Shown here piece by piece: positions 1 through 19,250 of a DNA stretch of 27,899 bases. Below the pieces are notes generated by a model. That model made no database searches. It was not told the DNA's origin and saw only the letters and a list, made by a program, of their open reading frames with translations. Where the stretch lies: IMG/VR virus record IMGVR_UViG_3300042563_002362; one strand, 5' to 3'. This DNA comes from a virus (taxonomy: Duplodnaviria; Heunggongvirae; Uroviricota; Caudoviricetes). The position numbers and the translations under genes were made by a program. Numbering within the stretch: the stretch's first letter is position 1; each line of letters opens with the position of its first letter.

Positions 1-35
1 GAAAGCCAAAACTATGTCAACTGAGAAATTTTCAT

Positions 36-122
36 GCGTCAGTAAAGCAAGCGGCTCTTGCAGCGAGACTGTAAATCTCGTCCCTTCATTGGGGAGTGGA
101 TCGACACCACACTGGCGCACCA
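36..122 (+). tRNA. tRNA-Tyr(GTA)
   Basis: Acceptor gcgtcag/ctggcgc, loop CT-GTA-AA, long variable arm, CCA; atypical T-loop ATCGACA. Confidence 0.85.
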
Positions 123-131
123 TTTTCTTAT

Positions 132-211
132 CCTCCAGTAGCTCAGTTGTGGTTAGAGCACCTGCCTTATAAGCGGGAGGTCGTGGGTTCGAGCCCCCAC
201 CTGGCGGACCA
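132..211 (+). tRNA. tRNA-Ile(TAT)
   Basis: Cloverleaf; anticodon arm cctgc CT-TAT-AA gcggg; CCA. Confidence 0.88.
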
Positions 212-260
212 AATAATTTGGTTTCTACATGGTAACTTGCATACCTAATGAAATCATTAG

Positions 261-351
261 GCAGCATAATATGATAGCTCAAATGATAAAGAGCTCTCCT
301 TTGCAATACAGGAGACGATGGATTGGTAATCGGAATCCTCATATATGCTGC
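261..351 (+). ncRNA. tRNA-like RNA with extended (about 13 bp) acceptor stem and non-canonical loops
   Basis: gcagcat/atgctgc plus atatga/tcatat; D arm gctc/gagc; arm tctcct/aggaga; T-like arm ggatt/aatcc; no CCA. Confidence 0.55.
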
Positions 352-366
352 TAACAATTTTCATAA

Positions 367-441
367 CCACCTGTAGCTCAGAGGCAGAGCAATCGGTCGA
401 TAACCGATAGGTCGTGATATCGTAATTCACCAGGTGGACCA
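367..441 (+). tRNA. tRNA-Ile(GAT)
   Basis: ccacctg/caggtgg; atcgg TC-GAT-AA ccgat; CCA; atypical T-loop. Confidence 0.88.
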
Positions 442-450
442 TTTCATAAT

Positions 451-525
451 GCGGGTTTGGTGTAATGGCTAACACGCCTTCCTTCCAAGTAGGAGCCAAG
501 GGTTCGATTCCCTTATCCCGCACCA
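451..525 (+). tRNA. tRNA-Gly(TCC)
   Basis: Cloverleaf, loop CT-TCC-AA, GGTTCGATTCC, CCA; A73. Confidence 0.88.
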
Positions 526-533
526 ATTTAATT

Positions 534-609
534 GGGCGCAAAGCATTGATGGCTGATGCACTCGGCTCTTACCCGAGAGAAGCCGGCTCGAGTCCGGATG
601 CACCCACCA
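534..609 (+). tRNA. tRNA-Lys(CTT)
   Basis: ctcgg CT-CTT-AC ccgag; CCA. Confidence 0.85.
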
Positions 610-620
610 ATTTCAAATAA

Positions 621-719
621 CGTCGCGTGTCCGAGTTTGGTTAAAGGAACTCCGCTTGGAACGGAGTGCGAGCAGCATGGGGCTGTTTGCCGTGGGTTCG
701 AATCCCACCGCGGCGACCA
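621..719 (+). tRNA. Class II-shaped tRNA with TGG (Pro) anticodon
   Basis: cgtcgcg/cgcggcg, A73, actccg CT-TGG-AA cggagt, 9-bp variable arm, canonical T arm, CCA. Confidence 0.8.
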
Positions 720-735
720 ATTTCAAAAATCTAAA

Positions 736-804
736 TCGAGTGCTGAAGAATACGGTTACTTCACTTATAAACGAAAAACCCACCGTGTTCGTTTGTTGCC
801 TCGA
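736..804 (+). ncRNA. Y-RNA-like hairpin RNA, family copy 1
   Basis: tcgag/ctcga, GC[T]GA/TTGC bulged helix, gaatacggt/accgtgttc, loop TTACTTCAC..AAACGAAA..CCC; paralog at 1711. Confidence 0.6.
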
Positions 805-808
805 ATAT

Positions 809-884
809 GCCACGTTAGGAGACCGGTAATCCGCCTGCCTGCAAAGCATGGAGATAGTCTGTTCGATTCAGACACGTGGCTCCA
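809..884 (+). tRNA. tRNA-Cys(GCA)
   Basis: gccacgt/acgtggc, loop CT-GCA-AA, U73, CCA; bulge in anticodon stem. Confidence 0.82.
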
Positions 885-890
885 ATTTTC

Positions 891-1046
891 AAATCTAAAT
901 CGAGTGTTGAATGCAGGCCGACCACTAAAGGTTTGTGTTATTCTGATGAAGTAAAATATCGGATGTCGCTTATTAAAAAAGAACTTTATAAAGATCCTAC
1001 TAAGAATCCGATGTATGGTAGGAAAAAGGTGTTTGATGTAAAGGAA
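891..1046 (+). pseudogene. Relic of a homing-endonuclease NUMOD3-type segment
   Basis: Short open frame reading KGLCYSDEVKYRMSLIKKELYKDPTKNPMYGRKK, no start codon; runs into tRNA-Trp. Confidence 0.45.
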
Positions 1047-1100
1047 GCATAACGGTCTCCAAAACCGTTTGTAGGATATCGTAATTCCTAGCACCTGCCA
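1027..1100 (+). tRNA. tRNA-Trp(CCA)
   Basis: acggt CT-CCA-AA accgt; G73; CCA. Confidence 0.87.
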
Positions 1101-1117
1101 ATTTCAATTTCAAACAT

Positions 1118-1192
1118 GCGCGTGTAGCTCAGAGGCAGAGCAGCTCCTTTACACGGAGAAGGCCGGGGTTTCGATATCCTCCATGCGTACCA
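1118..1192 (+). tRNA. tRNA-Val(TAC)
   Basis: Loop TT-TAC-AC; cloverleaf; CCA. Confidence 0.87.
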
Positions 1193-1201
1193 CTTTCAAA
1201 T

Positions 1202-1275
1202 CGCGGGGTAGAGTAGCGGCAACTCAACGGTCTCATAAGCCGTGCACGTGGGTTCGAATCCCACCCCCGCAACCA
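1202..1275 (+). tRNA. tRNA-fMet(CAT)
   Basis: C1xA72 mismatch (cgcgggg/ccccgca), CAT anticodon; lacks the full 3 GC anticodon-stem pairs. Confidence 0.8.
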
Positions 1276-1285
1276 ATTTCAATAT

Positions 1286-1361
1286 GCACACGTACTTTCA
1301 ATGGCAGATGGTTTGATTGTCAATCAAACGGATGCAGGATCGGTACCTGTCGTGTGCGCCA
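1286..1361 (+). tRNA. tRNA-Asp(GTC), divergent
   Basis: gcacacg/cgtgtgc, gtttga TT-GTC-AA tcaaac, G73, CCA; atypical D and T loops. Confidence 0.7.
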
Positions 1362-1370
1362 CTTTCAAAT

Positions 1371-1447
1371 AGAGCCGTAGCTCAGTTGGTCAGAGCGCTT
1401 GCCTGTCAAGCAAGAGGTCGCGGGTTCAAGCCCCGTCGGTTCTGCCA
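1371..1447 (+). tRNA. tRNA-Asp(GTC)
   Basis: Canonical cloverleaf, CT-GTC-AA, G73, CCA. Confidence 0.93.
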
Positions 1448-1456
1448 CTTTAATAT

Positions 1457-1532
1457 AGACATGAACGCACCACGGTTGGGCGGTCCGGTTGTTACCCGGT
1501 TGAATTTGGTTCGATCCCAAGCATGTCTGCCA
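1457..1532 (+). tRNA. tRNA-Asn(GTT), divergent
   Basis: agacatg/catgtct, loop TT-GTT-AC, G73, CCA. Confidence 0.72.
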
Positions 1533-1540
1533 AGTTTAAT

Positions 1541-1617
1541 GCCGCAGTAACCGAATTGGTATAGGTACTTGCCTTAGAAGCAAGGTTTTGTGGGTTCGAG
1601 TCCCACCTGCGGTACCA
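1541..1617 (+). tRNA. tRNA-Leu(TAG), short variable loop
   Basis: cttgc CT-TAG-AA gcaag; A73; CCA. Confidence 0.88.
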
Positions 1618-1631
1618 ATTTAATTCTTAAC

Positions 1632-1706
1632 CCACCGGTAGCTGAGACGGATTAGCGCTAGCCTGAAGAGCCTGAGAGATTGGATCGTTACCAATCCGGT
1701 GGACCA
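1632..1706 (+). tRNA. tRNA-Phe(GAA), mismatched anticodon stem
   Basis: ccaccgg/ccggtgg, loop CT-GAA-GA, CCA; two mismatches in anticodon stem. Confidence 0.72.
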
Positions 1707-1710
1707 TTTT

Positions 1711-1785
1711 ATCAAGTGCTGAAGAACAGTGTTACTTCACATGAAACGAAACCCAAACCCAACATTGTTCGCCTATTGCCTTGAT
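1711..1785 (+). ncRNA. Y-RNA-like hairpin RNA, family copy 2
   Basis: atcaag/cttgat, GC[T]GA/TTGC, gaacagtgtt/aacattgttc; stems differ from copy 1 but pairing is kept. Confidence 0.6.
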
Positions 1786-1797
1786 ACTTTCTTTAAC

Positions 1798-1874
1798 GGG
1801 ACATTCGACAAGTGGCCTAAGTCAGAACTCTCATAAGGTTCCATCCGTTGGTTCGAATCCAACATGTCCTACCA
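1798..1874 (+). tRNA. tRNA(CAT), elongator Met or Ile2
   Basis: gaact CT-CAT-AA ggttc; paired 1:72; CCA. Confidence 0.85.
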
Positions 1875-1884
1875 ATTTAGACGT

Positions 1885-2008
1885 AATGTTGAACATAGCA
1901 TAGATGATAATGCGCCTCTGATTTGCAGAGGAGAAGGTGCTTAGACCACATGATACATAAGTCCTTCAGAATTTCGGTGATCTGAAGAGAAAGAAAACAC
2001 CGTACATT
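1885..2008 (+). ncRNA. Structured element: degenerate cloverleaf plus H-type pseudoknot
   Basis: cttcaga/tctgaag hairpin whose loop cggtg can pair with downstream caccg; upstream hairpins gcat/atgc and cctctg/cagagg. Confidence 0.4.
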
Positions 2009-2014
2009 TTCAAA

Positions 2015-2100
2015 TCCCAAGTAATTCAATGGTAGAATGCAGCGCTGTTAACGCTGAGGCCCTTATAAGGTTAATGTAGGTTCGACCCCTACCTTGGGAG
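2015..2100 (+). tRNA. tRNA-Asn(GTT) with long variable arm, no encoded CCA
   Basis: tcccaag/cttggga, cagcg CT-GTT-AA cgctg, G73. Confidence 0.82.
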
Positions 2101-2127
2101 CTTTCCCCATGTTAGGATATGAACTAT

Positions 2128-2135
2128 TATAAATA
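2128..2135 (+). promoter_or_regulatory. T4-type late promoter TATAAATA
   Basis: Exact motif 4 nt before the ATG at 2140. Confidence 0.75.
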
Positions 2136-2139
2136 GTTT

Positions 2140-2814
2140 ATGTTCTATACGGTTTACAAGATAACTAATTTAATCAACGAAAAGATTTACATTGGAGTTC
2201 ATAAGACAGATGATCTCAATGATTCATACATGGGTTCTGGTCTCTTAATTAAGCATGCTATTTCAAAATATGGCATTCAAAATTTCGTAAAGGAATACAT
2301 TGCAATTTTTAATAATCCTGAAGAAATGTTTAGTATGGAGTCCGAACTCGTTAATGAGGAGCTGATAAAGTCTGGACATTCTTATAATCTAAAAGAAGGC
2401 GGATCTGGTGGTTGGGATTATGTAAACTCTTCAGAAAAAAACATTTATGGTCTAAATGGAAAGACGCCAGATGCCATTGCTAATTTAGCTAAAGGATTAG
2501 AAACTCAAAGATATCTTAGAAAGAACGATCCTGAGTGGGCTGCACGTGTTCATGAAAACCAGTCTATTGCCGCAGTGAATAGAAATAAAAAGTATGGCAA
2601 TGGTTTCAAAGGTAAGTCACACACAGAGCAAACAAAAGCTAAATTACGAAAGCCACGTCCAGCATCCGCTGGAGATAAAAATTCTCAGTTTGGGACGATG
2701 TGGATAACTAATAAGATTTTGAACAAAAAGATTTTGAAAACCGATCCAATCCCAGATGGTTGGATGAAAGGTATGACTCCGAAACAATTAGTGACGGAAA
2801 ATAAATTTAGATGA
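2140..2814 (+). CDS. GIY-YIG (Seg-like) homing endonuclease with NUMOD3-type C-terminus
   Basis: YTVYKITNLINEKIYIGVHKT...YMGSG; GKSHTEQTKAKL; KNSQFGTMWITN. Confidence 0.9.
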   Translation: MFYTVYKITNLINEKIYIGVHKTDDLNDSYMGSGLLIKHAISKYGIQNFVKEYIAIFNNPEEMFSMESELVNEELIKSGHSYNLKEGGSGGWDYVNSSEKNIYGLNGKTPDAIANLAKGLETQRYLRKNDPEWAARVHENQSIAAVNRNKKYGNGFKGKSHTEQTKAKLRKPRPASAGDKNSQFGTMWITNKILNKKILKTDPIPDGWMKGMTPKQLVTENKFR

Positions 2815-3025
2815 CGGCGTGGAAAGCAGACACGCAGGAACAACGACTGGCCGAAACCCTAGGCGGAGATGCACCAAGATGCGCTAGGTTAGTAATCCGG
2901 TCGTGACCGTAGAGAAGAGCCGTGCATGGCAAGTAAACAGAAAGCAAACCGACTTTGAATCGAGAGGCTTGTCCTGTTGATCGGGGTACCCGATGTCAAA
3001 TCCGAGTAGCGACGGATTCATCTAA
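2807..3025 (+). ncRNA. Large RNA with tRNA-like ends and a structured insert of about 140 nt
   Basis: ttagatga/tcatctaa terminal stem, D-like arm gcgt/acgc, caggaacaa/ttgtcctg stem, 3' hairpins. Confidence 0.5.
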
Positions 3026-3026
3026 T

Positions 3027-3101
3027 TGCTCTGTAGCTCAAAGGAAGAGCGCTTGCCTGACGTGCAAGAGGTTTGGGTATCGTGATCCCACAGAGCAACC
3101 A
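3027..3101 (+). tRNA. tRNA-Val(GAC)
   Basis: cttgc CT-GAC-GT gcaag; CCA. Confidence 0.85.
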
Positions 3102-3109
3102 TTTTTAAT

Positions 3110-3184
3110 GCCGGCATAGCTCAGAGGCAGAGCAGTTACCTTGTAAGTAACAGGTCGAGATTTCGAAATTCTCTGTCGGCTCCA
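3110..3184 (+). tRNA. tRNA-Thr(TGT)
   Basis: gttac CT-TGT-AA gtaac; U73; CCA. Confidence 0.9.
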
Positions 3185-3192
3185 CTTTCAAC

Positions 3193-3248
3193 GCTCCTTA
3201 AGCATAGATGGCGATGCGCTGATTTCGTACATCAGAAAGGACGGCTCG
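3193..3248 (+). pseudogene. 3'-truncated tRNA-Thr(CGT), broken in the T-loop
   Basis: Acceptor 5' strand, D arm, ctgat TT-CGT-AC atcag, gacgg ctcg, then HNH leader; no 3' half found. Confidence 0.75.
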
Positions 3249-3263
3249 TAAGCTCGATATTTG

Positions 3264-3271
3264 TATAAATA
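3264..3271 (+). promoter_or_regulatory. Late promoter TATAAATA
   Basis: Exact motif 5 nt before ATG 3277. Confidence 0.75.
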
Positions 3272-3276
3272 CTTTC

Positions 3277-3900
3277 ATGGATTACAAACGCATCTATGAT
3301 GAGCTTATAGCATTTAGAAAGGTTAACATTCCTTCAGGATATGTTGAGCGACATCATATAATCATGACCTCACTAGGAGGCAGTGATGATGCTGATAATT
3401 TAGTTAAGCTAACTGGCCGCGAGCATTGGATTGCTCATCTTTTACTTCACCAGATCTATCAACGATCTGAAACCGCATATGCTTGTCATATGATGGCAAT
3501 GCGATGTGAAGAGCGTGAAATACCATGTATCAAAAGTTCGCGGGTCTATGAAAAGATACGAAAGGAATGTGCTAAATTAACCTCAAAGACAATGAAATTT
3601 CATCAAGCTGGTGAAAGAAATTCGCAATTTGGAACCCGCTACATATGTAATCTTGATCTTAAACAAAATAAAAAGATTAAGAAGACAGACAATATTCCTG
3701 AAGGATGGATTGCCGGTCGTAATAGATGGAATATTGAGTCCAAAGTATCTAAGCCTAAGTATGTACATACTGAAGAGCATAAACGTAACATATCTGTTTC
3801 TAATAAAGGGAAACCAAAAACGGAAGAATGGAGAACACAGATTTCAAACATTCAACGTGGTAAGATTCGAGGACCTTACAAAAAAGCTAACGTCGCATAG
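3277..3900 (+). CDS. HNH homing endonuclease (MobE-like), copy 1
   Basis: ERHHII..SLGGSDD..NLVKLTGREHWIAHLLL; C-terminal NSQFGT and HTEEHKRNIS modules. Confidence 0.9.
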   Translation: MDYKRIYDELIAFRKVNIPSGYVERHHIIMTSLGGSDDADNLVKLTGREHWIAHLLLHQIYQRSETAYACHMMAMRCEEREIPCIKSSRVYEKIRKECAKLTSKTMKFHQAGERNSQFGTRYICNLDLKQNKKIKKTDNIPEGWIAGRNRWNIESKVSKPKYVHTEEHKRNISVSNKGKPKTEEWRTQISNIQRGKIRGPYKKANVA

Positions 3901-3964
3901 CTGGCCAATTGCACATGTTTCGTAATCATGTTTTTCGTGAGTTCAAATCTCACCGTTAGCTCCA
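3886..3964 (+). tRNA. tRNA-Thr(CGT), overlapping the HNH stop codon
   Basis: gctaacg/cgttagc, loop TT-CGT-AA, U73, CCA. Confidence 0.85.
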
Positions 3965-3971
3965 CTTTTAT

Positions 3972-4049
3972 CGGGTATTAGCGTAGCCTGGCTAGCGCGC
4001 CTCATTTGGATTGAGGAGGTCGTAGGTTCGAATCCTACATACCCGACCA
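3972..4049 (+). tRNA. tRNA-Pro(TGG)
   Basis: C1:G72, cctca TT-TGG-AT tgagg, CCA. Confidence 0.9.
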
Positions 4050-4053
4050 CTTT

Positions 4054-4139
4054 ACAGTAAGTCGAAGGCGGATTACTCCACCCAGCCAATTTAGTTGGGA
4101 CTGTATGAATACATTGAATAAACACTCCCTTCTTACTGT
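4054..4139 (+). ncRNA. Y-RNA-like candidate with GTCGAAG motif
   Basis: acagtaag/cttactgt terminal stem, bulged GTCGAAGG, internal hairpin cccagc/gttggg. Confidence 0.5.
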
Positions 4140-4144
4140 TTTAT

Positions 4145-4235
4145 GGAGCGGGCCCAGGCTGGCCGATGGAACATACCTGGAAAGTATGTGGACCCTACAA
4201 AGGTCTCAGGAGTTCGAATCTCCTCTGCTCCGCCA
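4145..4235 (+). tRNA. tRNA-Ser(GGA)
   Basis: Loop CT-GGA-AA, long variable arm, G73, CCA. Confidence 0.88.
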
Positions 4236-4242
4236 CTTTAAT

Positions 4243-4316
4243 TGAGGATTAGCATAATGGTAATGCTCGCGACTTTGACTCGCGCTATAAGAGTTCGATT
4301 CTCTTATCCTCTGCCA
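4243..4316 (+). tRNA. tRNA-Gln(TTG)
   Basis: cgcga CT-TTG-AC tcgcg; U1 mismatch; G73; CCA. Confidence 0.9.
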
Positions 4317-4317
4317 A

Positions 4318-4425
4318 CTTTAATAGTGTAATGGCAGCACGCCTTGATAGGGTTGTTGAGGTTCGATTCCTCTTGAATATGGTAACGTAAATCCGCACAG
4401 GGAAGAGCGGTTCGATTCCGATTTC
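4318..4425 (+). ncRNA. Aberrant tRNA-like element with one D arm and two T arms
   Basis: gtgt-aatggca-gcac D arm; gagg TTCGATT cctc; cgg TTCGATT ccg. Confidence 0.4.
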
Positions 4426-4427
4426 TT

Positions 4428-4526
4428 TGGGTATGATGTAGTGATAGCATGACACCTTCCAGGTTGAGAGGCACTTGCTTCTCTTTATGATAAAGTCAGC
4501 GTACGTTTGATTCGTGCTGCCCAACA
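4428..4526 (+). pseudogene. tRNA-Gly(TCC)-like with insertion of about 30 nt in the 3' anticodon stem
   Basis: tgggta/tgccca, loop CT-TCC-AG, inserted agagg/ttctct hairpin, T arm gtacg TTTGATT cgtgc; ends ACA. Confidence 0.5.
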
Positions 4527-4559
4527 ATTTTCACAATGACTGTTACATGTCGATACGTA

Positions 4560-4703
4560 GGGCATGGACGACCGACGGGGATGCTGGTAGGTGTGCGTCG
4601 GCCTTAACTCGCGCGTTACGTGAGGTAAAGGGGACCAGCATAATATGTCAAAACTGAAACTGCCGAGGGCACGGCTGTAAAACGGTGAAACTCCGATGTT
4701 CCA
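4560..4703 (+). ncRNA. Structured RNA with T-arm-like 3' end and CCA
   Basis: atgctggt/accagcat stem, alternative ccgacg/cgtcgg pairing, cgg-tgaaact-ccg, ends TCCA then the usual AATTT spacer. Confidence 0.45.
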
Positions 4704-4709
4704 ATTTTC

Positions 4710-4873
4710 ACAATGTGTTGGCCGTGATGATGTAATTTACGAGGCCACAAGAATAGATGACTGCGAGTGCGAATGACGAAGTAAGTCTTTTAGACCGAAA
4801 CAAAACAATATCTCGACAAGACCGGATACTTGAACAAATTTCTACTATTCAAACTTCATCGTAAACACATTGT
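4710..4873 (+). ncRNA. Orphan structured RNA
   Basis: 10-bp terminal stem acaatgtgtt/aacacattgt enclosing several hairpins. Confidence 0.45.
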
Positions 4874-4876
4874 TTT

Positions 4877-4919
4877 GCTCGTAGGTGATTCTATGATTCG
4901 TTCATTGTTGCCTACGAGT
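4877..4919 (+). ncRNA. Hairpin element
   Basis: ctcgtagg/cctacgag; 3' TTGTTGCC as in the copy at 736. Confidence 0.35.
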
Positions 4920-5040
4920 TCTAAAATTTACCTAAACGGGCTCATGAAGCGTAGGGACGGGCTCTTCCAACAGCGTGATGGCTGAAGTCTTCGGACGAAG
5001 AGTATGTATATCTTGCAATAAGCGCTTTAATACTTTCAAA

Positions 5041-5115
5041 CGGGGTGAAGCTTTAATGGTGAAGCAGCAGGCTTTTAACTTGCAGAACTGGGATCGTTAC
5101 CCAGCGCCCTGACCA
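5041..5115 (+). tRNA. tRNA-Lys(TTT)
   Basis: gcagg CT-TTT-AA cttgc; T-loop ATCGTTA; CCA. Confidence 0.85.
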
Positions 5116-5134
5116 CTTTCAATATAATTAAACC

Positions 5135-5347
5135 ATGAAGCCAATACTTGCTACAAGTCAATTCTGCGGTCCTTGCAAACTGCTTAAAGACCGCCTTGAT
5201 CCGAACTCTTATGAGGTTCGAGACATGGAAAAAGACCGTGATTTTTTCATCGAAAACGGCATCCGTGCTGTTCCTATGCTCATCATAGGAACCGTGAAAA
5301 TCACAGGAATGGACAAAATCATCGCATATTTCGACGAAAACCCATAA
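5135..5347 (+). CDS. Glutaredoxin/NrdH-like thioredoxin-fold protein
   Basis: CGPC motif, GIRAVPMLII cis-Pro segment, 70 aa. Confidence 0.8.
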   Translation: MKPILATSQFCGPCKLLKDRLDPNSYEVRDMEKDRDFFIENGIRAVPMLIIGTVKITGMDKIIAYFDENP

Positions 5348-5399
5348 CCCATTGGTTTTCAACGGAATGAAAAAAAGTGAAAAAAAGTGAATTTTTTTG

Positions 5400-5428
5400 T
5401 TTACATTTGACCAAATTTGGTTTATAAT
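5400..5428 (+). promoter_or_regulatory. Sigma70-type early promoter TTTACA-N17-TATAAT with upstream A/T tracts
   Basis: Exact motif; the same motif recurs six more times in the window. Confidence 0.8.
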
Positions 5429-5503
5429 AATTCTGTAAGGCAACCCTCGAAGATTCCGACAGACAACTGACAACAGTTCCTGAAAAAATCCAAAAGAAAA
5501 CCC

Positions 5504-5532
5504 TTTACAAGCTGACAGAAACCTGTTAGTAT
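5504..5532 (+). promoter_or_regulatory. Second tandem promoter TTTACA-N17-TAGTAT
   Basis: Same -35 and spacing as 5400. Confidence 0.5.
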
Positions 5533-5603
5533 TAAACATAATCAATTCGGTGGTTCGTTCCGCTAAGTTGGTTACCTTCAGAAAAGAGTTTCTGATTGTA
5601 TCC

Positions 5604-5614
5604 GTTCTTTGACA
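5604..5614 (+). promoter_or_regulatory. boxA-like antitermination element GTTCTTTGACA
   Basis: Resembles rrn-leader boxA (E. coli TGCTCTTTAACA); lies between tandem promoters and the RNA array. Confidence 0.5.
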
Positions 5615-5802
5615 TTTTCTAACTTTGAAAGGAGCACTTCGGTCCCTTTCACCATACAAGACTACAATGCAAATTGTGTCTGATTAGTACGGCCCGGGAC
5701 GGGTTGGGAACATCAGTATGTCAACCGATAAATTTTCATGGTGCCGCCTCGCGAAGTCGGTGGTTAAATGTACGAAGAGAGCAGCCATTATTTTTTTGAG
5801 TC

Positions 5803-5923
5803 GAGTTTAGAACGCGAAGAGGTCAAGTGTGCAACGGTAAAATCTAGAGAGTAACCCTGCATGCGAGCGTAACCTTCCCTACATCGCATAGGGCGCAACA
5901 GGTGCGATTCCTGTAGACTCTCA
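5803..5923 (+). ncRNA. tRNA-like ends with large internal domain
   Basis: gagttta/tagactc; T arm acagg TGCGATT cctgt. Confidence 0.5.
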
Positions 5924-5932
5924 ATTTTCAAT

Positions 5933-6043
5933 AAGAAGGTGGAAACAAAAAGCTGGCGACGGTCAGTGAACAAAGCCAAGCGGTATGGCATCGGACTAAT
6001 TACTCCGATTTCTTCAAGGGTTCAAATCCCTTTCTTCTTTCCA
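5933..6043 (+). ncRNA. tRNA-like RNA with about 35-nt insertion before the D arm and an 8-nt anticodon loop
   Basis: aagaagg/tcttctt, gcc-aagcggtat-ggc, atcgga/tccgat, aaggg TTCAAAT ccctt, CCA. Confidence 0.55.
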
Positions 6044-6052
6044 ATTTCAAAT

Positions 6053-6129
6053 GGGGCGCACAATCCAAAGTGCCTACGTTGTAACTCAACGCAGAGGGCA
6101 AGCCGATTGGGTGTCGGGCCGCTCCACCA
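6053..6129 (+). ncRNA. tRNA-like RNA with Ala acceptor identity and no canonical anticodon loop
   Basis: GGGGCG/CGCTCC gives G3.U70; A73; CCA; 5-nt loop cgttg-taact-caacg. Confidence 0.55.
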
Positions 6130-6139
6130 ATTTACAACC

Positions 6140-6215
6140 GGGCTCGGTATGAATGGCGATGTTCTCAGTGGGATTAAGTTCCCGCCTTCGGGTTGCTGAG
6201 GTTGTATGCCTGCCA
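6140..6215 (+). ncRNA. Small structured RNA ending in CCA
   Basis: ctcag/ctgag stem with two hairpins, one with a UUCG loop; ends TGCCA. Confidence 0.35.
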
Positions 6216-6230
6216 AAGTTCATACACAAT

Positions 6231-6305
6231 GCTGCTATCGTCTATCGGTTAGGACAAATGGTTTTCAACCATTAGAGCGGGGTTCAACTCCCCGTAGCAG
6301 TACCA
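6231..6305 (+). tRNA. tRNA-Glu(TTC)
   Basis: aatgg TT-TTC-AA ccatt; CCA. Confidence 0.9.
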
Positions 6306-6313
6306 ATTTTCAA

Positions 6314-6506
6314 CTGAATCGGAGATTAGAGGTAAGTTGAGTAACAACGCCCCGCTAGGTTAATAGGCAAACCGGCATGCTTCTGTAAGTGCTCGAGCTA
6401 AAGGAAGCCATGTGTGTACAGCATGAAAACGCAGTTCTGGGTTCGATCCCCAGGCGGGGCTGCTCTAATAAACAACGAGGCGTCATTCCACGCCTACAAG
6501 ATTCGG
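6314..6506 (+). ncRNA. tRNA-like domain embedded in a long closing stem
   Basis: Core gccccgc/gcggggc with D arm ggtt/aacc and T arm ctggg TTCGATC cccag; outer attagag/ctctaat and ctgaatc/gattcgg. Confidence 0.6.
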
Positions 6507-6516
6507 AAATTTTCAA

Positions 6517-6591
6517 CAGGATGTGGCTTGACTGGGAAGCGCTTAGTTTGGGGCTAAGAATATGAAGGTTCGAATCCTTTCATCCTGACCA
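6517..6591 (+). tRNA. tRNA-Pro(TGG)
   Basis: caggatg/catcctg; cttag TT-TGG-GG ctaag; CCA. Confidence 0.88.
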
Positions 6592-6598
6592 ATTTCAT

Positions 6599-6683
6599 GG
6601 GCTGGTGTGGCCGAGCTGAGCTGGCGATCATCATGATAGTTCGAAAGAACCTTAAGGAAGTTTGAATCTTCCACTGTCCACCA
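6599..6683 (+). ncRNA. Degenerate class II tRNA-like gene, anticodon undetermined
   Basis: D arm gcc/ggc, variable arm gttc-gaaa-gaac, T arm ggaag TTTGAAT cttcc, CCA. Confidence 0.5.
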
Positions 6684-6694
6684 ATTTTTCATAT

Positions 6695-6780
6695 GGGTAG
6701 GTATACCGTTAAGGAGACGGTTCGGACTGTAAATCCGACGCTTTCGAGCTCGCTGGGATCGTTCCCCAGACTGCCCACCA
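6695..6780 (+). tRNA. tRNA-Tyr(GTA)
   Basis: tcgga CT-GTA-AA tccga; variable arm; CCA. Confidence 0.88.
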
Positions 6781-6873
6781 TTTTATAAATTCGTTCACGT
6801 GGTGGTGACGACTACAGGAGCCTAGGTCCCTACAGCAATGCTAATGCATGCAACCTTTAATTTTCAAAACAAT

Positions 6874-6958
6874 GCGTGTGTGGGCCAATGGTCGGTCATC
6901 TGACTCTTAATCAGCGGAAGAAATTCCTATGCAGGTTCGAATCCTGTCGCACGTACCA
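6874..6958 (+). tRNA. tRNA-Lys(CTT) with long variable arm
   Basis: ctga CT-CTT-AA tcag; extra gga/tcc arm; CCA. Confidence 0.85.
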
Positions 6959-6966
6959 ATTTCAAT

Positions 6967-7041
6967 GGGCTGTTAGTATAACGGATAATACGCTGCGCTA
7001 CGAACGCAGAGATCCAGGTTCGATTCCTGGGCGGCCTACCA
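6967..7041 (+). tRNA. tRNA-Arg(ACG)
   Basis: ctgcg CT-ACG-AA cgcag; CCA. Confidence 0.92.
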
Positions 7042-7051
7042 ATTTCAATAT

Positions 7052-7128
7052 CCGAGAGTAGCTTTAATTGGTAAAAGCCCTCCCTGTGAAGGAGCACAAT
7101 GTGGGTTCGAGTCCCACCTCGCGGACCA
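7052..7128 (+). tRNA. tRNA-His(GTG) with A73 and no genomic G-1
   Basis: ctcc CT-GTG-AA ggag; 3' end ctcgcgg-A-CCA; base -1 is T. Confidence 0.85.
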
Positions 7129-7166
7129 ATTTAGCTGACATATACGTCATGACGGTATGTTGGCAA

Positions 7167-7239
7167 TTTACACCAGTGAAGCGGGCAGAGATGCCAGCGA
7201 AGTATTCGTCACCAGTGAAAGTCGGTTTAACGGTGTAGA
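7167..7239 (+). ncRNA. Mini-cloverleaf structured element
   Basis: tttacacc/ggtgtaga enclosing three short hairpins. Confidence 0.35.
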
Positions 7240-7277
7240 TCATTTTCTCGATGTGGTTTGCAGACTGCATCGGACAA

Positions 7278-7407
7278 GTAAGCGAACATAAGAACGCATG
7301 ATGCTGCAACTGATTGCAAGTAAGGTGAGGTAATCGTCTAATAGAAGGACACCAGCTAGAAAAGCTGGGAACATTGGTGCAAATCCAATTTACTTTTTGT
7401 CGCTTAC
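7278..7407 (+). ncRNA. tRNA-like domain (7327-7396) inside a long closing stem
   Basis: gtaagcga/tcgcttac; core gaggtaa/ttacttt, ccagc-tagaaaa-gctgg, attgg TGCAAAT ccaat. Confidence 0.5.
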
Positions 7408-7420
7408 AAGTTTTTCAAAT

Positions 7421-7502
7421 GGGGCGCGGTAAAGCGTAAGGCAGGGTTTTTGTAATTGATTCATTTCAAGCCCGGGAGGTTAGATTCCTCTGCGCTCCAC
7501 CA
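7421..7502 (+). ncRNA. tRNA-like RNA with Ala acceptor identity and 18-nt anticodon loop
   Basis: ggggcgc/gcgctcc (G3.U70), A73, CCA; gggttt/aagccc stem; gagg TTAGATT cctc. Confidence 0.6.
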
Positions 7503-7514
7503 ATTTTTCTTTAT

Positions 7515-7590
7515 GGGCTCGCATGTTCCTCGGGGGCGAGAAGCACTTGCAATGCATCTGTGGCCGGTTCGATTCCGGTCGGGTCCACCA
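7515..7590 (+). tRNA. tRNA-Ala(TGC)
   Basis: G3.U70, loop CT-TGC-AA, A73, CCA. Confidence 0.82.
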
Positions 7591-7600
7591 ATTTTCAAAT

Positions 7601-7690
7601 GTGGTTCATCGGAAGCAGTCTTTAGGTGGGCTGAGGTGACTGTCGGTAAAACTGTTAAACACCCTATGCCAGTCCCTCCCGATGAACTAC
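7601..7690 (+). ncRNA. Orphan long-stem RNA
   Basis: 12-bp gtggttcatcgg/ccgatgaactac stem with inner helices. Confidence 0.45.
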
Positions 7691-7697
7691 GCCTTTT

Positions 7698-7803
7698 GGG
7701 TATAGCAGCGGTGCGGAAGAAGGTTCGATTCCTTCATGATTCATTGAATCAACATGGTGTTGCGGCGACGGCCACCTTGGGTTCAACTCCCAATATATCC
7801 ACC
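7698..7803 (+). ncRNA. tRNA-like RNA with two T arms
   Basis: gggtata/tatatcc; gaagg TTCGATT ccttc and ttggg TTCAACT cccaa. Confidence 0.5.
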
Positions 7804-7817
7804 TTTTCTTAGTTAAT

Positions 7818-7892
7818 GCTGGCATCGTCTAATGGTCAGGACATCTGGTTTTCAACCAGCAGATCGGAGTTCAATTCTCCGTGCCAGTACCA
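7818..7892 (+). tRNA. tRNA-Glu(TTC)
   Basis: ctgg TT-TTC-AA ccag; CCA. Confidence 0.9.
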
Positions 7893-7897
7893 ATTTA

Positions 7898-7975
7898 GAG
7901 CGGCTCTTGTGTCTAGGAAGAGTCTCCAAAGAGTCAAGGATATGACTTGCTGCCGTTAACTCGGAACGGATTCCA
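7898..7975 (+). ncRNA. Multi-hairpin element ending TCCA
   Basis: gctctt/aagagt, agtca/tgact, ccgtt/aacgg; shares CTCTTGTGTCTA with the 9525 element. Confidence 0.35.
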
Positions 7976-7982
7976 ATTTTAT

Positions 7983-8073
7983 GGAGGTATGACAGAGCGG
8001 TAACTGTGTCTGTTTGCTAAACAGAAGCCACCCTTGATCGGGTGCGTCGGTTCGATCCCGGCTACCTCCGCCA
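7983..8073 (+). tRNA. tRNA-Ser(GCT)
   Basis: tctgt TT-GCT-AA acaga; variable arm; G73; CCA. Confidence 0.9.
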
Positions 8074-8081
8074 ATTTCAAT

Positions 8082-8158
8082 CGCGGGTTCGACAGGAGGT
8101 GGTTCCTGCCGGGTTTCATAAGCCTAGTACGTCGGTTCGAGTCCGACACCCGCAACCA
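8082..8158 (+). tRNA. tRNA-fMet(CAT), second copy
   Basis: C1xA72; loop TT-CAT-AA; CCA. Confidence 0.78.
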
Positions 8159-8170
8159 ATTTTCTAACAT

Positions 8171-8226
8171 GGCCCGTTCGTTTAATGGATAGGACTGCTC
8201 CCTTCTAAGGAGACAATAGAGGTTCG
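8171..8226 (+). pseudogene. 3'-truncated tRNA-Arg(TCT), broken in the T-loop
   Basis: D loop with A20, ctcc CT-TCT-AA ggag, agagg ttcg, then HNH leader. Confidence 0.75.
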
Positions 8227-8241
8227 TAAGTTCGGTATTTG

Positions 8242-8249
8242 TATAAATA
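8242..8249 (+). promoter_or_regulatory. Late promoter TATAAATA
   Basis: Exact motif 5 nt before ATG 8255, inside palindrome gtattt-gtat-aaatac. Confidence 0.75.
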
Positions 8250-8254
8250 CTTTC

Positions 8255-8938
8255 ATGGATTACAAACGTATCTATGATGAACTTATTGCTTTTAGACAAG
8301 CTAACATTCCGTCCGGTTATGTTGAGCGTCATCATATTATCATGCGTTCTCTCGGTGGTTTGGATGATTCTATAAATCTTGTCGCATTAACTGGACGAGA
8401 GCATTGGATTGCTCATTTACTTCTTCATAAGATATATCGACGTTCTGAAACTGCTCATGCATGTAATATGATGGCAATGCGGTGTGAAGAACGCGGCATT
8501 GGATACATTAAGAATTCTAGAATGTATGAAAAGATTCGTAAGGAATGTGCGAAGCTAACTTCGATTAGAAATTCAGCTTCTCAATCTGGAGAACGCAATT
8601 CCCAACACGGTACACGTTGGATATGCAATATTGACCTTAAAGAAAACAAGAAGATTCTAAAGACTGATGCGATACCCGAAGGATGGATTGCTGGACGCGA
8701 TCATTGGAATCGTTTTATTGAAAAACAATGTTTGAAGTGTAAAACGATTTTCTTTGGTAAGCGCCTTGTCAAATATTGTTCTTCGGCATGCAGATCTCGT
8801 AAGTTAACGGACGAAGAAAAACATCATTTATCCAGGCAAGCTTTGCTATCAGGAAGAAATTCCGGTAAAAACAATGGCATGCATAAATCAAAACTTTCTC
8901 GATTGGCCTCGGTATCGGAACGTGCTTCTAACGCGTAG
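8255..8938 (+). CDS. HNH homing endonuclease (MobE-like), copy 2, with extra Cys-rich module
   Basis: N-terminal part highly similar to 3277 ORF; CLKC...YCSSAC. Confidence 0.9.
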   Translation: MDYKRIYDELIAFRQANIPSGYVERHHIIMRSLGGLDDSINLVALTGREHWIAHLLLHKIYRRSETAHACNMMAMRCEERGIGYIKNSRMYEKIRKECAKLTSIRNSASQSGERNSQHGTRWICNIDLKENKKILKTDAIPEGWIAGRDHWNRFIEKQCLKCKTIFFGKRLVKYCSSACRSRKLTDEEKHHLSRQALLSGRNSGKNNGMHKSKLSRLASVSERASNA

Positions 8939-8983
8939 AACCGTAATGGAACGATGTAGGTTCGATTCCTACTCGAGGCGCCA
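8906..8983 (+). pseudogene. tRNA-Arg(TCT)-like lacking a D arm, overlapping the HNH C-terminus
   Basis: gcctcgg/tcgaggc, 7-nt connector, acgtg CT-TCT-AA cgcgt, long variable region, canonical T arm, CCA. Confidence 0.6.
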
Positions 8984-9023
8984 CTTTCTGTAATAAGAGA
9001 CCTGATCAGAACTAATTTTCAAT

Positions 9024-9519: not shown

Positions 9520-9524
9520 AACTT

Positions 9525-9613: not shown

Positions 9614-9631
9614 ATTCTTTTCGTGGTGATA

Positions 9632-9764
9632 TATGACAGTTCCTTCTATTGTTACAGATGAGGTGGAGGTTCGAATCCTTCTGCTGCTGCAAAGTGCATA
9701 CCTAAACCGAATGCATTTCGTAGCGGTATAGCTTAATGGTTAGAGCGCGAAAAATACTGTCGTA
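9632..9764 (+). ncRNA. yrlA: YrlA-type Y RNA (circularly permuted tRNA mimic)
   Basis: Order: closing stem tatgacagt, T arm ggagg TTCGAAT ccttc, acceptor-like gctgctgc/gtagcggt capped by a hairpin, D arm gct-taatggtta-gagc, GCGAAAA, closing strand actgtcgta; Ro60 gene in the window. Confidence 0.78.
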
Positions 9765-9781
9765 GCCAGTTCCCGAAACAT

Positions 9782-9857
9782 GCATCTGTAGCTCAGTGGT
9801 TAGAGCACCTCCTTGATAAGGTGGGGGTCGTTGGTTCAAGTCCAACCAGGTGTACCA
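9782..9857 (+). tRNA. tRNA-Ile(GAT)
   Basis: Loop TT-GAT-AA; CCA. Confidence 0.88.
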
Positions 9858-15264: not shown

Positions 15265-15305
15265 AAACGTATGAAATTGGAAATCAATTCCATTTGACAA
15301 TTTAA

Positions 15306-15416
15306 TGCCGTGGTGCATGATTCGGTTGCATCAATATAAGAAAAACAACTAGCTGGCAGTGTAACTAAAACCATCTGTCAGCAAAAACAAACCTCCGACT
15401 CAGACTATTCCCGGCA
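15306..15416 (+). promoter_or_regulatory. Structured 5' leader of the vWA-PurA operon
   Basis: tgccg/cggca enclosing tggtgca/tgcatca and gctggcag/ctgtcagc hairpins. Confidence 0.4.
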
Positions 15417-15438
15417 CAACTTCTATTAACCAAACACT

Positions 15439-17942: not shown

Positions 17943-19250
17943 ATGAAAACAAACATTAAGAATACTCCGAAGAACTTCACCCACGAAGGCGCGGTTGCGA
18001 AAAACATCAATGCAAAGCAAGAATTGCGACGCACCGTTATGTCGTGTTTGCTGTGGGAAAATAGTTTCTATGAAAGCGGTGTCGATATCGCTTCACGCAT
18101 CGCAGATCTTGTTCCACGCGTAAGCGGTAAGGAAGCAATGGAGATTGCAATTGAATGTCGATCCTCAATGAAGCTGCGTCATACGCCGCTTTACATTGCT
18201 CGACTTATGGCACAAAACGCGCATCAGCGCGAGTATGTTGCACAGACGTTGTATGCAGTCATCCAGCGTGCAGACGAACTCTCTGAGTTCCTTTCTCTCT
18301 ACTGGAAGAATGGCCGTGTCCCAATTGCTAAGCAGGTCAAGAAAGGTCTTGCGTCGGCGTTCACCAAGTTCAATGAATATGCTCTTGCAAAGTATAATCG
18401 TGATGGTGCAATCAAGCTGCGTGACGTCTTGTTCATGGTACACGCTAAGCCAAAGGATGCCGAACAGGCTGCTCTTTGGAAGCGCCTTGTCAACGACGAA
18501 TTGAAGACTCCAGATACCTGGGAAGTTGAATTGTCGGCTTCGTCTGACAAGAAGGCTTCTTGGACTCGTCTGTTGTCCGAAAATAAGTTGGGTGCATTGG
18601 CGCTGTTGCGTAACCTTCGTAACATGAAGAACGCTGGTGTGGACGACATGCTAATTCGTGACGCATTGCGTAATATCAATGCAGATCGTGTTCTTCCATT
18701 TCGTTTCATCAGTGCTGCGCGTCATGCACCAAGTCTTGAAGCTGAACTTGAAGCTGGTATGTTTAAGTGTTTGGAGGGACACGCTAAGTTGCCAGGTAAG
18801 ACTGTAGTGTTGATCGACGTCTCTGGTTCGATGATTTGGAAGATCAGCGACAAGAGTGACATCAACCGTATTGACACTGCATGTGGACTTGCTATGCTGC
18901 TACGTGAAATTTGTGATACCGTCGAGGTTCATACTTTCTCAACTGCAGTTCGTGAAGTTGCACCACGTCGTGGTTTTGCACTCGCCGAAGCTATCAATCG
19001 TTCTCAGCCATACGGCGGAACTGATCTTGGGCATGCGGTTAAAACGGTCAATGGAATCAACTGTGATCGTCTAATCGTTATCACCGACGAACAGAGCTCG
19101 ACACGAGTTCCAGATCCAGTGTGCAAGAAGAGCTACATGATCAACGTTGCTTCTTACAAGAACGGTGTTGGTTATGGCCCTTGGACTCATATTGACGGTT
19201 GGAGCGATTCAATCGTTACTTACATCCAGGCGCTCGAAAACACGCATTGA
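17943..19250 (+). CDS. rsr: Ro60/Rsr TROVE-domain RNA-binding protein
   Basis: THEGA, ELRRTVMSCLLWE.SFYE, KYNRD...LRDVLFMVH, TPDTWE, ALLRNLRNM, vWA DVSGSM and ITDEQ. Confidence 0.93.
   Translation: MKTNIKNTPKNFTHEGAVAKNINAKQELRRTVMSCLLWENSFYESGVDIASRIADLVPRVSGKEAMEIAIECRSSMKLRHTPLYIARLMAQNAHQREYVAQTLYAVIQRADELSEFLSLYWKNGRVPIAKQVKKGLASAFTKFNEYALAKYNRDGAIKLRDVLFMVHAKPKDAEQAALWKRLVNDELKTPDTWEVELSASSDKKASWTRLLSENKLGALALLRNLRNMKNAGVDDMLIRDALRNINADRVLPFRFISAARHAPSLEAELEAGMFKCLEGHAKLPGKTVVLIDVSGSMIWKISDKSDINRIDTACGLAMLLREICDTVEVHTFSTAVREVAPRRGFALAEAINRSQPYGGTDLGHAVKTVNGINCDRLIVITDEQSSTRVPDPVCKKSYMINVASYKNGVGYGPWTHIDGWSDSIVTYIQALENTH

What the first reader, a model, noticed from the sequence alone, without database searches (positions are those of the whole stretch)
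736..1785. Two-copy hairpin ncRNA family resembling classical Y RNAs
Seen: 736-804 and 1711-1785 share a terminal stem, a GC[T]GA/TTGC helix with a bulged pyrimidine, a 9-10 bp upper stem whose sequence differs but whose pairing is kept, and a loop TTACTTCAC..AAACGAAA..CCC. Established: animal Y RNAs have a GUC[C]GA/UUGAC bulged Ro-binding helix and a pyrimidine-rich loop. Inference: these are further Ro60 partners, so the phage may run one Ro60 with several Y RNAs. A third 5' copy (aaatctaaatcgagtgttgaa) at about 891 is disrupted.
Basis: partly seen in the sequence, partly recalled or inferred. Interest (0 to 1): 0.78.

Follow-up and report, generated by a model that had tools for sequence, protein, structure and literature searches.

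The report
Hairpin Y RNAs for phage Ro60
Two small hairpin RNAs between the tRNA genes of a freshwater phage are stripped-down members of the Y RNA family, the partners of the ring-shaped Ro60 protein that this phage also encodes, so this is a new member of a known RNA-protein system and not a new kind of system.

Summary
Windows 733-808 and 1709-1788 (+ strand) are two homologous 70-75 nt hairpins. They share a basal stem, a GC[U]GA/UUGC bulged helix, a 9-10 bp upper stem with three compensatory changes, and a UUACUUC...A-rich loop. A third copy at 891-916 is truncated, and its intact ortholog exists in the nearest relative.

A covariance model built from the two copies finds homologs directly upstream of the Ro60 gene, on the same strand, in 13 related phage contigs. 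A Ro60-blind motif scan of viral contigs returned more than 120 stretches. Of the 80 fetched, 70 encode Ro60 in the flank (median 181 nt downstream). The same stem encloses sub-threshold Rfam YrlA matches in Caulobacter and Xanthomonas phages.

The hairpins are therefore minimal members of the bacterial/phage Yrl Y RNA family, of the YrlB/Yrn2 type without a tRNA-like domain. They carry the published GNCGAAG-type Ro60 motif (here GCUGAAG) and the YUAY motif.

The window also holds a YrlA-type member (9616-9782), a divergent member (15303-15420) and an intact Ro60 gene (17943-19250). What is unusual is their place inside the tRNA array, 16-17 kb from Ro60. Binding and expression are untested. 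This scan has reported similar phage Ro60-plus-RNA loci in other genomes.

The parts
733..808 (+). Hairpin Y RNA, copy 1. The stem is 736-804: basal stem 736-740/800-804, bulged helix GC[U]GA 742-746 with UUGC 796-799, upper stem 748-756/782-790, loop 757-781 starting UUACUUC.
   Evidence: R2 70.5 bits, E 4e-22.
1709..1788 (+). Hairpin Y RNA, copy 2. The stem is 1711-1785, with the same bulged helix, a 10-bp upper stem 1726-1735/1761-1770, and a loop starting UUACUUC.
   Evidence: R2 69.7 bits, E 7e-22.
891..916 (+). Truncated third copy: leader, basal stem and GUGUUGAAUGCA only. A pseudogene.
   Evidence: The intact ortholog in the relative is L066:832-903 (R2 70.1 bits).
917..1100 (+). Replacement segment that cut copy 3: about 110 nt of homing-endonuclease-like coding remnant plus tRNA-Trp (1027-1100).
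   Evidence: Homology to the relative is lost after 916. Window 948-1111 is about 84% identical to tRNA regions of T5-like Salmonella/Escherichia phages. tRNA-Trp is called.
9616..9782 (+). YrlA-type Y RNA. It has the same basal and upper stem, with a permuted tRNA-like insert (T arm, long hairpin, D arm). It abuts tRNA-Ile, which starts at 9782.
   Evidence: R2 34.3 bits, E 1e-9. The MFE fold reproduces the stems and arms.
15303..15420 (+). Divergent family member with a hairpin insert, 2.5 kb upstream of Ro60. Its motifs are degenerate (GGUGCAUG, UUGCAUC).
   Evidence: R2 38.8 bits, E 4e-11; fold.
17943..19250 (+). Ro60 gene (TROVE + vWA, 435 aa), the presumed protein partner.
   Evidence: Pfam TROVE 1.9e-16 and vWA_Ro60. 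The closest solved structure is Thermus phage phiLo Ro60, 9KOP/9L5Y, E 1e-24. It is 93% identical to the relative's gene over its full length.
621..719 (+). tRNA directly upstream of copy 1. Its CCA end is 16 nt before the stem.
809..884 (+). tRNA-Cys, starting 4 nt after the copy 1 stem.
1632..1706 (+). tRNA directly upstream of copy 2. Its CCA end is 4 nt before the stem.
   Evidence: Rfam tRNA 39.6 bits; sequence.
1798..1874 (+). tRNA-Met, starting 12 nt after the copy 2 stem.

Best explanation
The two hairpins are minimal Y RNAs of the bacterial/phage Yrl family, the non-coding partners of Ro60. They keep only the Ro60-docking part of a YrlA-type RNA. That part is a basal stem, a bulged helix (5' G-U-G-C-[U]-G-A-A-G against 3' U-U-G-C-C, with a G.U wobble that is invariant in the family), an upper stem, and the conserved UUAC(UUC) that starts the loop. 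The tRNA-like domain is replaced by a 25-30 nt loop that is pyrimidine-rich and then A-rich.

Shown here: sequence homology, structural covariation, and tight genomic linkage of the family to Ro60 genes.

Inferred: the RNAs are transcribed on the + strand as part of the polycistronic tRNA array. They are released by the tRNA-processing machinery, with RNase P cutting at the 5' end of the tRNA that starts 4 or 12 nt after each stem, and 3' maturation of the upstream tRNA freeing the 5' side. They then bind the outer face of the phage Ro60 ring through the 5' strand of the bulged helix.

By analogy with Deinococcus and Salmonella Rsr, and with Thermus phage phiLo Ro60, they would gate the Ro60 cavity and/or tether Ro60 to a host 3'-5' exoribonuclease such as PNPase. 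Together with the YrlA-type RNA at 9616-9782, this would give one Ro60 several alternative RNPs.
For: 1) Model R1, built from the two copies only, hits 20 sites in 13 Ro60-selected relatives. All are on the Ro60 strand and within about 660 nt upstream of the gene.
2) Covariation in 25 members: 93.9% paired, 16 of 18 pairs compensatory, G.U invariant in 25 of 25. An independent RNAalifold run agrees.
3) A Ro60-blind motif scan of viral contigs gave more than 120 stretches and 88 distinct sequences. Of 80 loci, 70 have Ro60 in the flank, and 76 of 82 motif copies lie upstream on the same strand, median distance 181 nt. Two further loci have TROVE elsewhere in the record.
4) The same scan of bacterial genomes gave 48 of 80 loci with Ro60, with 52 of 53 copies upstream on the same strand.
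5) R2 stems enclose Rfam YrlA matches in Xanthomonas phage MET23-P3 and Caulobacter phage CcrColossus.
6) The motifs match the published GNCGAAN0-1G and YUAY (PMC4201824).
7) The stems are identical between the window and its relative, while the loops and the neighbouring tRNA-Cys diverge.
8) The same 3-hairpin + YrlA-type + Ro60 layout is kept in the relative.
9) Hairpin Y-like RNAs of a phage were shown to bind its Ro60 and host PNPase (PMC12135203).
Against: The hairpins lie 16-17 kb from Ro60, whereas family members are normally within a few hundred bases (and within 4 kb in Chen et al. 2014).

The C of the CGAA core is U in both copies. The equivalent C8U change lowered phiLo Ro60 affinity about 3-fold, although many Ro60-adjacent relatives also carry U there.

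Neither Rfam YrlA (RF02553) nor any other Rfam family, the animal Y_RNA model included, scores the hairpins at E <= 10.

Two viral genomes estimated complete carry a family member but have no detectable TROVE gene, so the RNA can exist without a phage Ro60.

There is no direct evidence of expression, RNA ends or binding.
Confidence: 0.85

Rival explanations
1. The hairpins are Y-RNA-derived, but they act without the phage Ro60. They might be decoys or sponges for a host factor such as host Rsr, PNPase or another RNase that recognises the stem or the UACUUC loop.
For: Two viral genomes estimated complete carry a good family member (R2 54 and 48 bits) with no TROVE match. Yrl RNAs of phiLo bind PNPase on their own. 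Here the hairpins are far from Ro60.
Against: This phage and its relative both keep an intact Ro60 alongside the hairpins. In 70 of 80 unbiased viral loci the RNA is next to Ro60.
Confidence: 0.08
2. The hairpins are decaying duplicates (pseudogenes) of a Y RNA that were scattered in the tRNA array by homing-endonuclease traffic and no longer function.
For: One copy (891-916) is clearly truncated by an insertion. The array is full of homing endonuclease genes. The CGAA core is UGAA.
Against: The stems of both copies are fully paired. They are identical, or changed only from G.U to G-C, between the window and the relative, while loops and neighbouring tRNAs diverge. The two copies differ by compensatory changes. 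Their R2 scores are the highest of all members found.
Confidence: 0.04
3. The hairpins are structural or processing elements of the tRNA precursor, such as spacers, RNase entry sites or attenuators, or odd tRNA remnants, and have nothing to do with Ro60.
For: They sit between tRNAs with short spacers, and no promoter or terminator of their own was found.
Against: ARAGORN and the Rfam tRNA model find no cloverleaf. No U-tract follows them. The same RNA occurs next to Ro60 in genomes where no tRNA is nearby; only 12 of 80 viral loci have a tRNA within 1 kb.
Confidence: 0.03

Closest known systems
YrlA (Rfam RF02553), the tRNA-mimicking Y RNA of bacteria and phages (Chen et al. 2014, PMC4201824)
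   Same: The 5' Ro60 motif of the GNCGAAG type, the YUAY that follows the stem, closure by pairing of the 5' and 3' ends, and linkage to Ro60 on the same strand. R2 stems enclose Rfam YrlA matches in two cultured phages.
   Different: The hairpins have no T arm, D arm or acceptor-like hairpin. Rfam YrlA gives no match at E <= 10. The 3' strand of the Ro helix is conserved here, whereas Chen et al. say only the 5' strand is recognisable in the Salmonella and M. smegmatis RNAs.
YrlB (Salmonella, M. smegmatis) and Yrn2 (D. radiodurans): second, hairpin-type Y RNAs
   Same: [quoted passage not shown] This is the same architecture and the same division of labour as here.
   Different: Those RNAs lie within 2 kb of rsr. 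These lie in a tRNA array 16-17 kb away.
Yrl1 and Yrl2 of Thermus phage phiLo (PMC12135203)
   Same: Phage-encoded hairpin Y-like RNAs with a CGAA motif, next to a phage Ro60 that is the closest solved relative of the window's protein. They were shown to bind Ro60 and host PNPase.
   Different: The published RNAs were picked upstream of the gene by the CGAA motif. R2 does not match that upstream region. Instead it matches two elements just downstream of the phiLo gene. The window's copies have UGAA, not CGAA.
Animal Y RNAs (Rfam RF00019)
   Same: A bulged Ro-binding helix made by the RNA ends: A-U, G.U wobble, bulged pyrimidine, then C-G (GGUCCGA/UUGACC against GUGCUGA/UUGCC). A pyrimidine-containing loop. 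Several paralogs per Ro60.
   Different: No detectable homology (no Rfam match). Animal Y RNAs are separate Pol III genes with a U-tail bound by La. These are embedded in a bacterial-type tRNA operon.

Membership tests
Bacterial/phage Yrl Y RNAs (Chen et al. 2014) | GNCGAAN0-1G motif near the 5' end | tested here: inconclusive
   Both copies read GCUGAAG, that is, the motif with U in place of C. Ro60-adjacent relatives read GGCGAAG, GGUGAAG or GGYGUAG. The position stays a pyrimidine, but the literal consensus is missed by one base.
Bacterial/phage Yrl Y RNAs (Chen et al. 2014) | Encoded near the Ro60 ortholog on the same strand (within about 4 kb) | tested here: inconclusive
   Met at family level: median 181 nt upstream, same strand. 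In this window the strand and genome are the same, but the distance is 16-17 kb.
Bacterial/phage Yrl Y RNAs (Chen et al. 2014) | Long stem formed by the 5' and 3' ends that holds the Ro60 site, plus a loop | tested here: met
   the structure is supported by 15-16 compensatory pairs.
Bacterial/phage Yrl Y RNAs (Chen et al. 2014) | Conserved YUAY after the stem | tested here: met
   UUAC in both copies. (U/A)UACUUC is near-invariant in the family.
Bacterial/phage Yrl Y RNAs (Chen et al. 2014) | Bound by Ro60/Rsr in vivo or in vitro | not testable with these tools
   The tools offer no RNA-protein prediction or assay.
YrlA proper (Rfam RF02553) | tRNA-like domain (T arm, acceptor-like hairpin, D arm) and a score at or above the gathering threshold | tested here: not met
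   No T or D arm in either hairpin. No RF02553 match at E <= 10. The element at 9616-9782 does have these arms.
Animal Y RNA (Rfam RF00019) | Match to the family model; GGUCCGA/UUGACC helix | tested here: not met
   No match at E <= 10. The helix is only analogous (GUGCUGA/UUGCC).
tRNA | Cloverleaf recognised by ARAGORN or Rfam RF00005 | tested here: not met
   neither hairpin is called.

The most novel reading that the evidence does not exclude
In this T4-like freshwater phage the Y RNAs have moved out of the Ro60 locus into the tRNA operon. They would then be made and trimmed by the same machinery and in step with the phage's 40-odd tRNAs. The Ro60-Y RNP would act on that tRNA pool, either as quality control of misfolded or odd phage tRNAs or as handling of tRNAs cut by host anticodon nucleases, together with the neighbouring RlaP-type nucleotidyltransferase and phosphoesterases. 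On this reading the minimal hairpins would be pure 'gates', and the YrlA-type RNA would be the 'tether'.
Probability: 0.15. Interest if true: 0.6.

Novelty: new member of a known kind. Interest (0 to 1): 0.36.

Why it matters
Y RNAs without a tRNA-like domain were previously found only by immunoprecipitation in three bacteria and were said to elude bioinformatic discovery (PMC4201824). The stem model built here from two phage copies recovers hundreds of them next to Ro60 genes in phages and bacteria. It shows that both strands of the Ro-binding bulged helix, with an invariant G.U, are conserved, as in animals. It also ties the hairpin type and the YrlA type together as one family with exchangeable inserts. 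For this phage, it shows one Ro60 with at least four RNA partners embedded in a tRNA array. That is a convenient system for asking what different Y RNAs do for one Ro60. The concept itself is established: phage Ro60 with several Y RNAs is already known.

Tried and rejected
- An exact 25-base motif of the two copies found nothing else in viral contigs.
- A looser 16-base motif gave 43 loci, all unrelated coding sequence or chance matches.
- My first in-window motif search had the wrong spacer length and found nothing.
- BLAST of 600-2100 against cultured phages found only tRNA-level similarity and the T5-like segment.
- Rfam at E <= 10 gave no family for either hairpin.
- Whole-record searches with R1 through the genome search missed members that cmsearch found in the same relatives. 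Those zeros are a sensitivity limit, not evidence of absence.
- Reads. No RNA run holds the region well. One freshwater metatranscriptome has a single 153-nt contig identical to 646-798, running from the upstream tRNA into copy 1. The other 'RNA' runs are probably DNA of relatives. This shows neither expression nor RNA ends, and the uncovered parts mean nothing.
- ORFs around the two Ro60-less family members gave no Pfam hits.
- The ORF 556-954 that overlaps copy 1 runs across tRNAs and is taken as spurious.
- No promoter or terminator of note flanks the hairpins.

Full report
**Setting.** The window is part of a 60.5-kb viral metagenome record, estimated about 28% complete. It recurs in lake-water metagenomes. 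Positions 1-13200 of the + strand hold about 45 tRNA genes and a tmRNA (12108-12444), interrupted by GIY-YIG and HNH homing endonuclease genes. Downstream on the same strand lie an adenylosuccinate synthetase gene, a Ro60 gene (17943-19250; TROVE 1.9e-16 plus Ro60-type vWA), a UvdE endonuclease, an RlaP-type 'RNA repair pathway' nucleotidyltransferase and metallophosphoesterases. The closest solved structure to the Ro60 is that of Thermus phage phiLo (9KOP/9L5Y, E 1e-24).

**The observation.**
- Copy 1 (stem 736-804) and copy 2 (stem 1711-1785) align at 84% identity.
- An asymmetric internal loop follows, then a 9-10 bp upper stem and a 25-30 nt loop. The loop begins UUACUUCAC and continues with an A-rich stretch.
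- Between the copies, three pairs are changed on both sides and still pair, and one more pair is changed on one side.
- RNAfold recovers the hairpin on the + strand with z = -3.3 and -3.7. The - strand gives only -1.6 and -1.4. The + strand is the strand of the tRNAs and of Ro60.
- The third copy at 891-916 repeats the leader and the first 20 nt of copy 1 and then loses homology.
- In the nearest relative (Ro60 93% identical) the same position holds a full-length hairpin, L066:832-903.
- In the window, the rest of copy 3 has been replaced by about 110 nt of endonuclease-like coding remnant and a tRNA-Trp. This segment is about 84% identical to the tRNA regions of T5-like phages.

**What it is.** A covariance model made from the two copies alone (R1) was run on 17 loci that had been fetched only because they encode a relative of the window's Ro60 (41-93% identity).
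- It found 20 further matches in 13 of them. Every match is on the Ro60 strand and within about 660 nt upstream of the gene, often as two or three tandem copies.
- In the resulting 25-sequence alignment, 93.9% of cells are paired and 16 of 18 pairs show changes on both sides. The G.U next to the bulge is invariant (25 of 25). Neither shuffling nor sliding the partners comes near these values.
- That alignment was fitted to the model, so I repeated the test with a plain MAFFT alignment of 19 short members and RNAalifold. It gave the same structure, with 15 of 16 pairs compensatory.

**Is the link to Ro60 a selection artefact?** The relatives had been chosen through Ro60, so I scanned the viral collection with a DNA motif taken from the RNA only (GTGGYGWAG-N8-TACTTC-N22-52-TTCCC).
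- I had estimated only a handful of chance matches.
- Of the 80 loci returned (88 distinct motif sequences), 70 encode a Ro60 relative in the fetched flank.
- Of 82 motif copies in those loci, 76 lie upstream of the gene on its strand, at a median distance of 181 nt.
- Two more loci have Ro60 elsewhere in the record, one of them just across the ends of a record with terminal repeats.
- The same motif in bacterial and archaeal genomes again hit the limit. The hits are mostly in Acidobacteriota and Alphaproteobacteria.
- There, 48 of 80 loci have Ro60 in the 8-kb piece, and 52 of 53 copies are upstream on the same strand. Many of the remaining loci are cut off on the downstream side.

**Relation to known Y RNAs.** Chen et al. 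2014 (PMC4201824) define bacterial Y RNAs by three things. These are a GNCGAAN0-1G motif near the 5' end (likened to the GGUCCGA contacted by Xenopus Ro60), a conserved YUAY after the stem, and, for YrlA, a tRNA-like domain.
[quoted passage not shown] They say such RNAs eluded bioinformatic discovery.
- The family found here reads G-U-G-(G/C)-Y-G-(A/U)-A-G at that place. That is GGCGAAG in many members and GCUGAAG in the window. It is followed after the upper stem by (U/A)UACUUC, which contains the YUAY.
- A second model built from the 25 members (R2) was run on cultured phages. It finds five tandem members upstream of Ro60 in Xanthomonas phage MET23-P3.
- It finds about nine upstream of Ro60 in Caulobacter phage CcrColossus, and others in a Brevundimonas jumbo phage, crAss001 and a Rhizobium phage.
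- Several of these carry T-arm and D-arm inserts. Three coincide with sub-threshold Rfam YrlA matches of 37-52 bits.
- The stem is therefore the docking module of YrlA-type RNAs, and the window's hairpins are that module with a minimal loop.
- Rfam itself gives nothing for the hairpins at E <= 10.
- R2 also shows that the window holds a YrlA-type member at 9616-9782, with T arm, long hairpin and D arm, confirmed by an independent fold. It holds a divergent member at 15303-15420.
- The relative keeps the same layout: three hairpins, a YrlA-type RNA 8 kb further on, and Ro60 about 17 kb from the first hairpin.

**How it most likely works.**
- Shown: membership of a structured RNA family whose genes are tied to Ro60 genes, and conservation of the stems. 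Between the window and the relative, the stems of copy 1 are identical while its loop and the adjacent tRNA-Cys differ. Copy 2 differs in its stem only by G.U to G-C.
- Inferred, processing: no promoter or terminator of note flanks the hairpins. The next tRNA starts 4 nt after copy 1, 12 nt after copy 2, and immediately after the YrlA-type RNA. I therefore infer co-transcription with the tRNAs, with RNase P cleavage of the downstream tRNA setting the 3' ends.
- Inferred, binding: binding to the outer face of Ro60 through the 5' strand of the bulged helix follows from the Xenopus and phiLo work (PMC4201824, PMC12135203). In phiLo, hairpin Yrl RNAs bind Ro60 at about 17 nM, each CGAA base matters about 3-fold, and ternary complexes with host PNPase damp its activity.
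- Open: the role of the short UACUUC/A-rich loop. It could gate the Ro60 cavity or contact an exoribonuclease.

**Caveats.** The hairpins are unusually far from Ro60. Their motif has U for the C of CGAA. Expression is not shown: the only trace is one 153-nt contig in a freshwater metatranscriptome, identical to 646-798, which proves nothing about ends or abundance. Two viral genomes estimated complete carry a good member but have no detectable TROVE gene. Some phages may therefore use the RNA with a host protein, or without Ro60.

**Verdict.** The thing is a new, minimal member of a known kind, the bacterial/phage Y RNAs of the YrlB type. Several Y RNAs per Ro60 is the rule, and phage Ro60-Y RNA pairs are published. 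The modest novelty lies in two points. The docking stem defines a large family that Rfam does not detect and that includes hairpin members. In this phage lineage the Y RNA genes sit inside the tRNA operon. Earlier notes of this scan describe similar phage Ro60-plus-'handle' RNA loci in many other genomes, and a first-stage note had flagged the YrlA-type element at 9632-9764, which I recovered independently.

Noticed in passing
window 9616-9782: A YrlA-type Y RNA. It has the same docking stem as the hairpins, with a permuted tRNA-like insert (T arm, long hairpin, D arm), and directly abuts tRNA-Ile. Rfam YrlA does not report it at E <= 10.
   Followed up: partly
window 15303-15420: A divergent family member (R2 38.8 bits) with an internal hairpin. 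It lies in the gap before ORF 15439-15804, 2.5 kb upstream of Ro60. Its Ro motif and UACUUC are degenerate.
   Followed up: partly
window 4050-4144: A stem-loop between tRNA-Pro and tRNA-Ser with a literal GUCGAAGG and a following AUUACUCC. R2 does not score it, so it may be a Y-like RNA of a different layout.
   Followed up: partly
window 917-1111: A homing-endonuclease-like coding remnant plus tRNA-Trp, about 84% identical to tRNA regions of T5-like Salmonella/Escherichia phages. It replaced the 3' two-thirds of the third Y RNA copy. One metagenome contig of a relative joins 913 directly to 1105.
   Followed up: partly
L192 (Thermus phage phiLo) 3979-4047 and 4184-4235: Two matches to the family model (25 and 11 bits) with GGGUACUUC lie just downstream of the phiLo Ro60 gene and overlap the annotated CDS phiLo_25. 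The published Yrl1 and Yrl2 were chosen upstream by a CGAA motif, and R2 finds nothing there.
   Followed up: no
L190 (Caulobacter phage CcrColossus) 1242-2440: About nine tandem family members fill the unannotated 1.2 kb before the Ro60 gene, with varied inserts. One overlaps the annotated tRNA-Gln (1655-1722), which may be a Y RNA's tRNA-like module.
   Followed up: no
L196 (G006:47993-48063) and L197 (G008:25978-26050): Two viral genomes estimated 100% complete (82 kb and 50 kb) carry a well-scoring hairpin member but have no detectable TROVE gene. Neighbouring ORFs have no Pfam match.
   Followed up: partly
window 24623-25384 and 23005-23931: An RlaP-family nucleotidyltransferase ('RNA repair pathway') and a UvdE UV endonuclease lie a few kb downstream of Ro60, with two metallophosphoesterases (14709-15227, 25371-26072). 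This looks like a damage/repair gene neighbourhood.
   Followed up: no
window 12108-12444: A phage-encoded tmRNA (117 bits), directly after a tRNA-Ala in the array.
   Followed up: no
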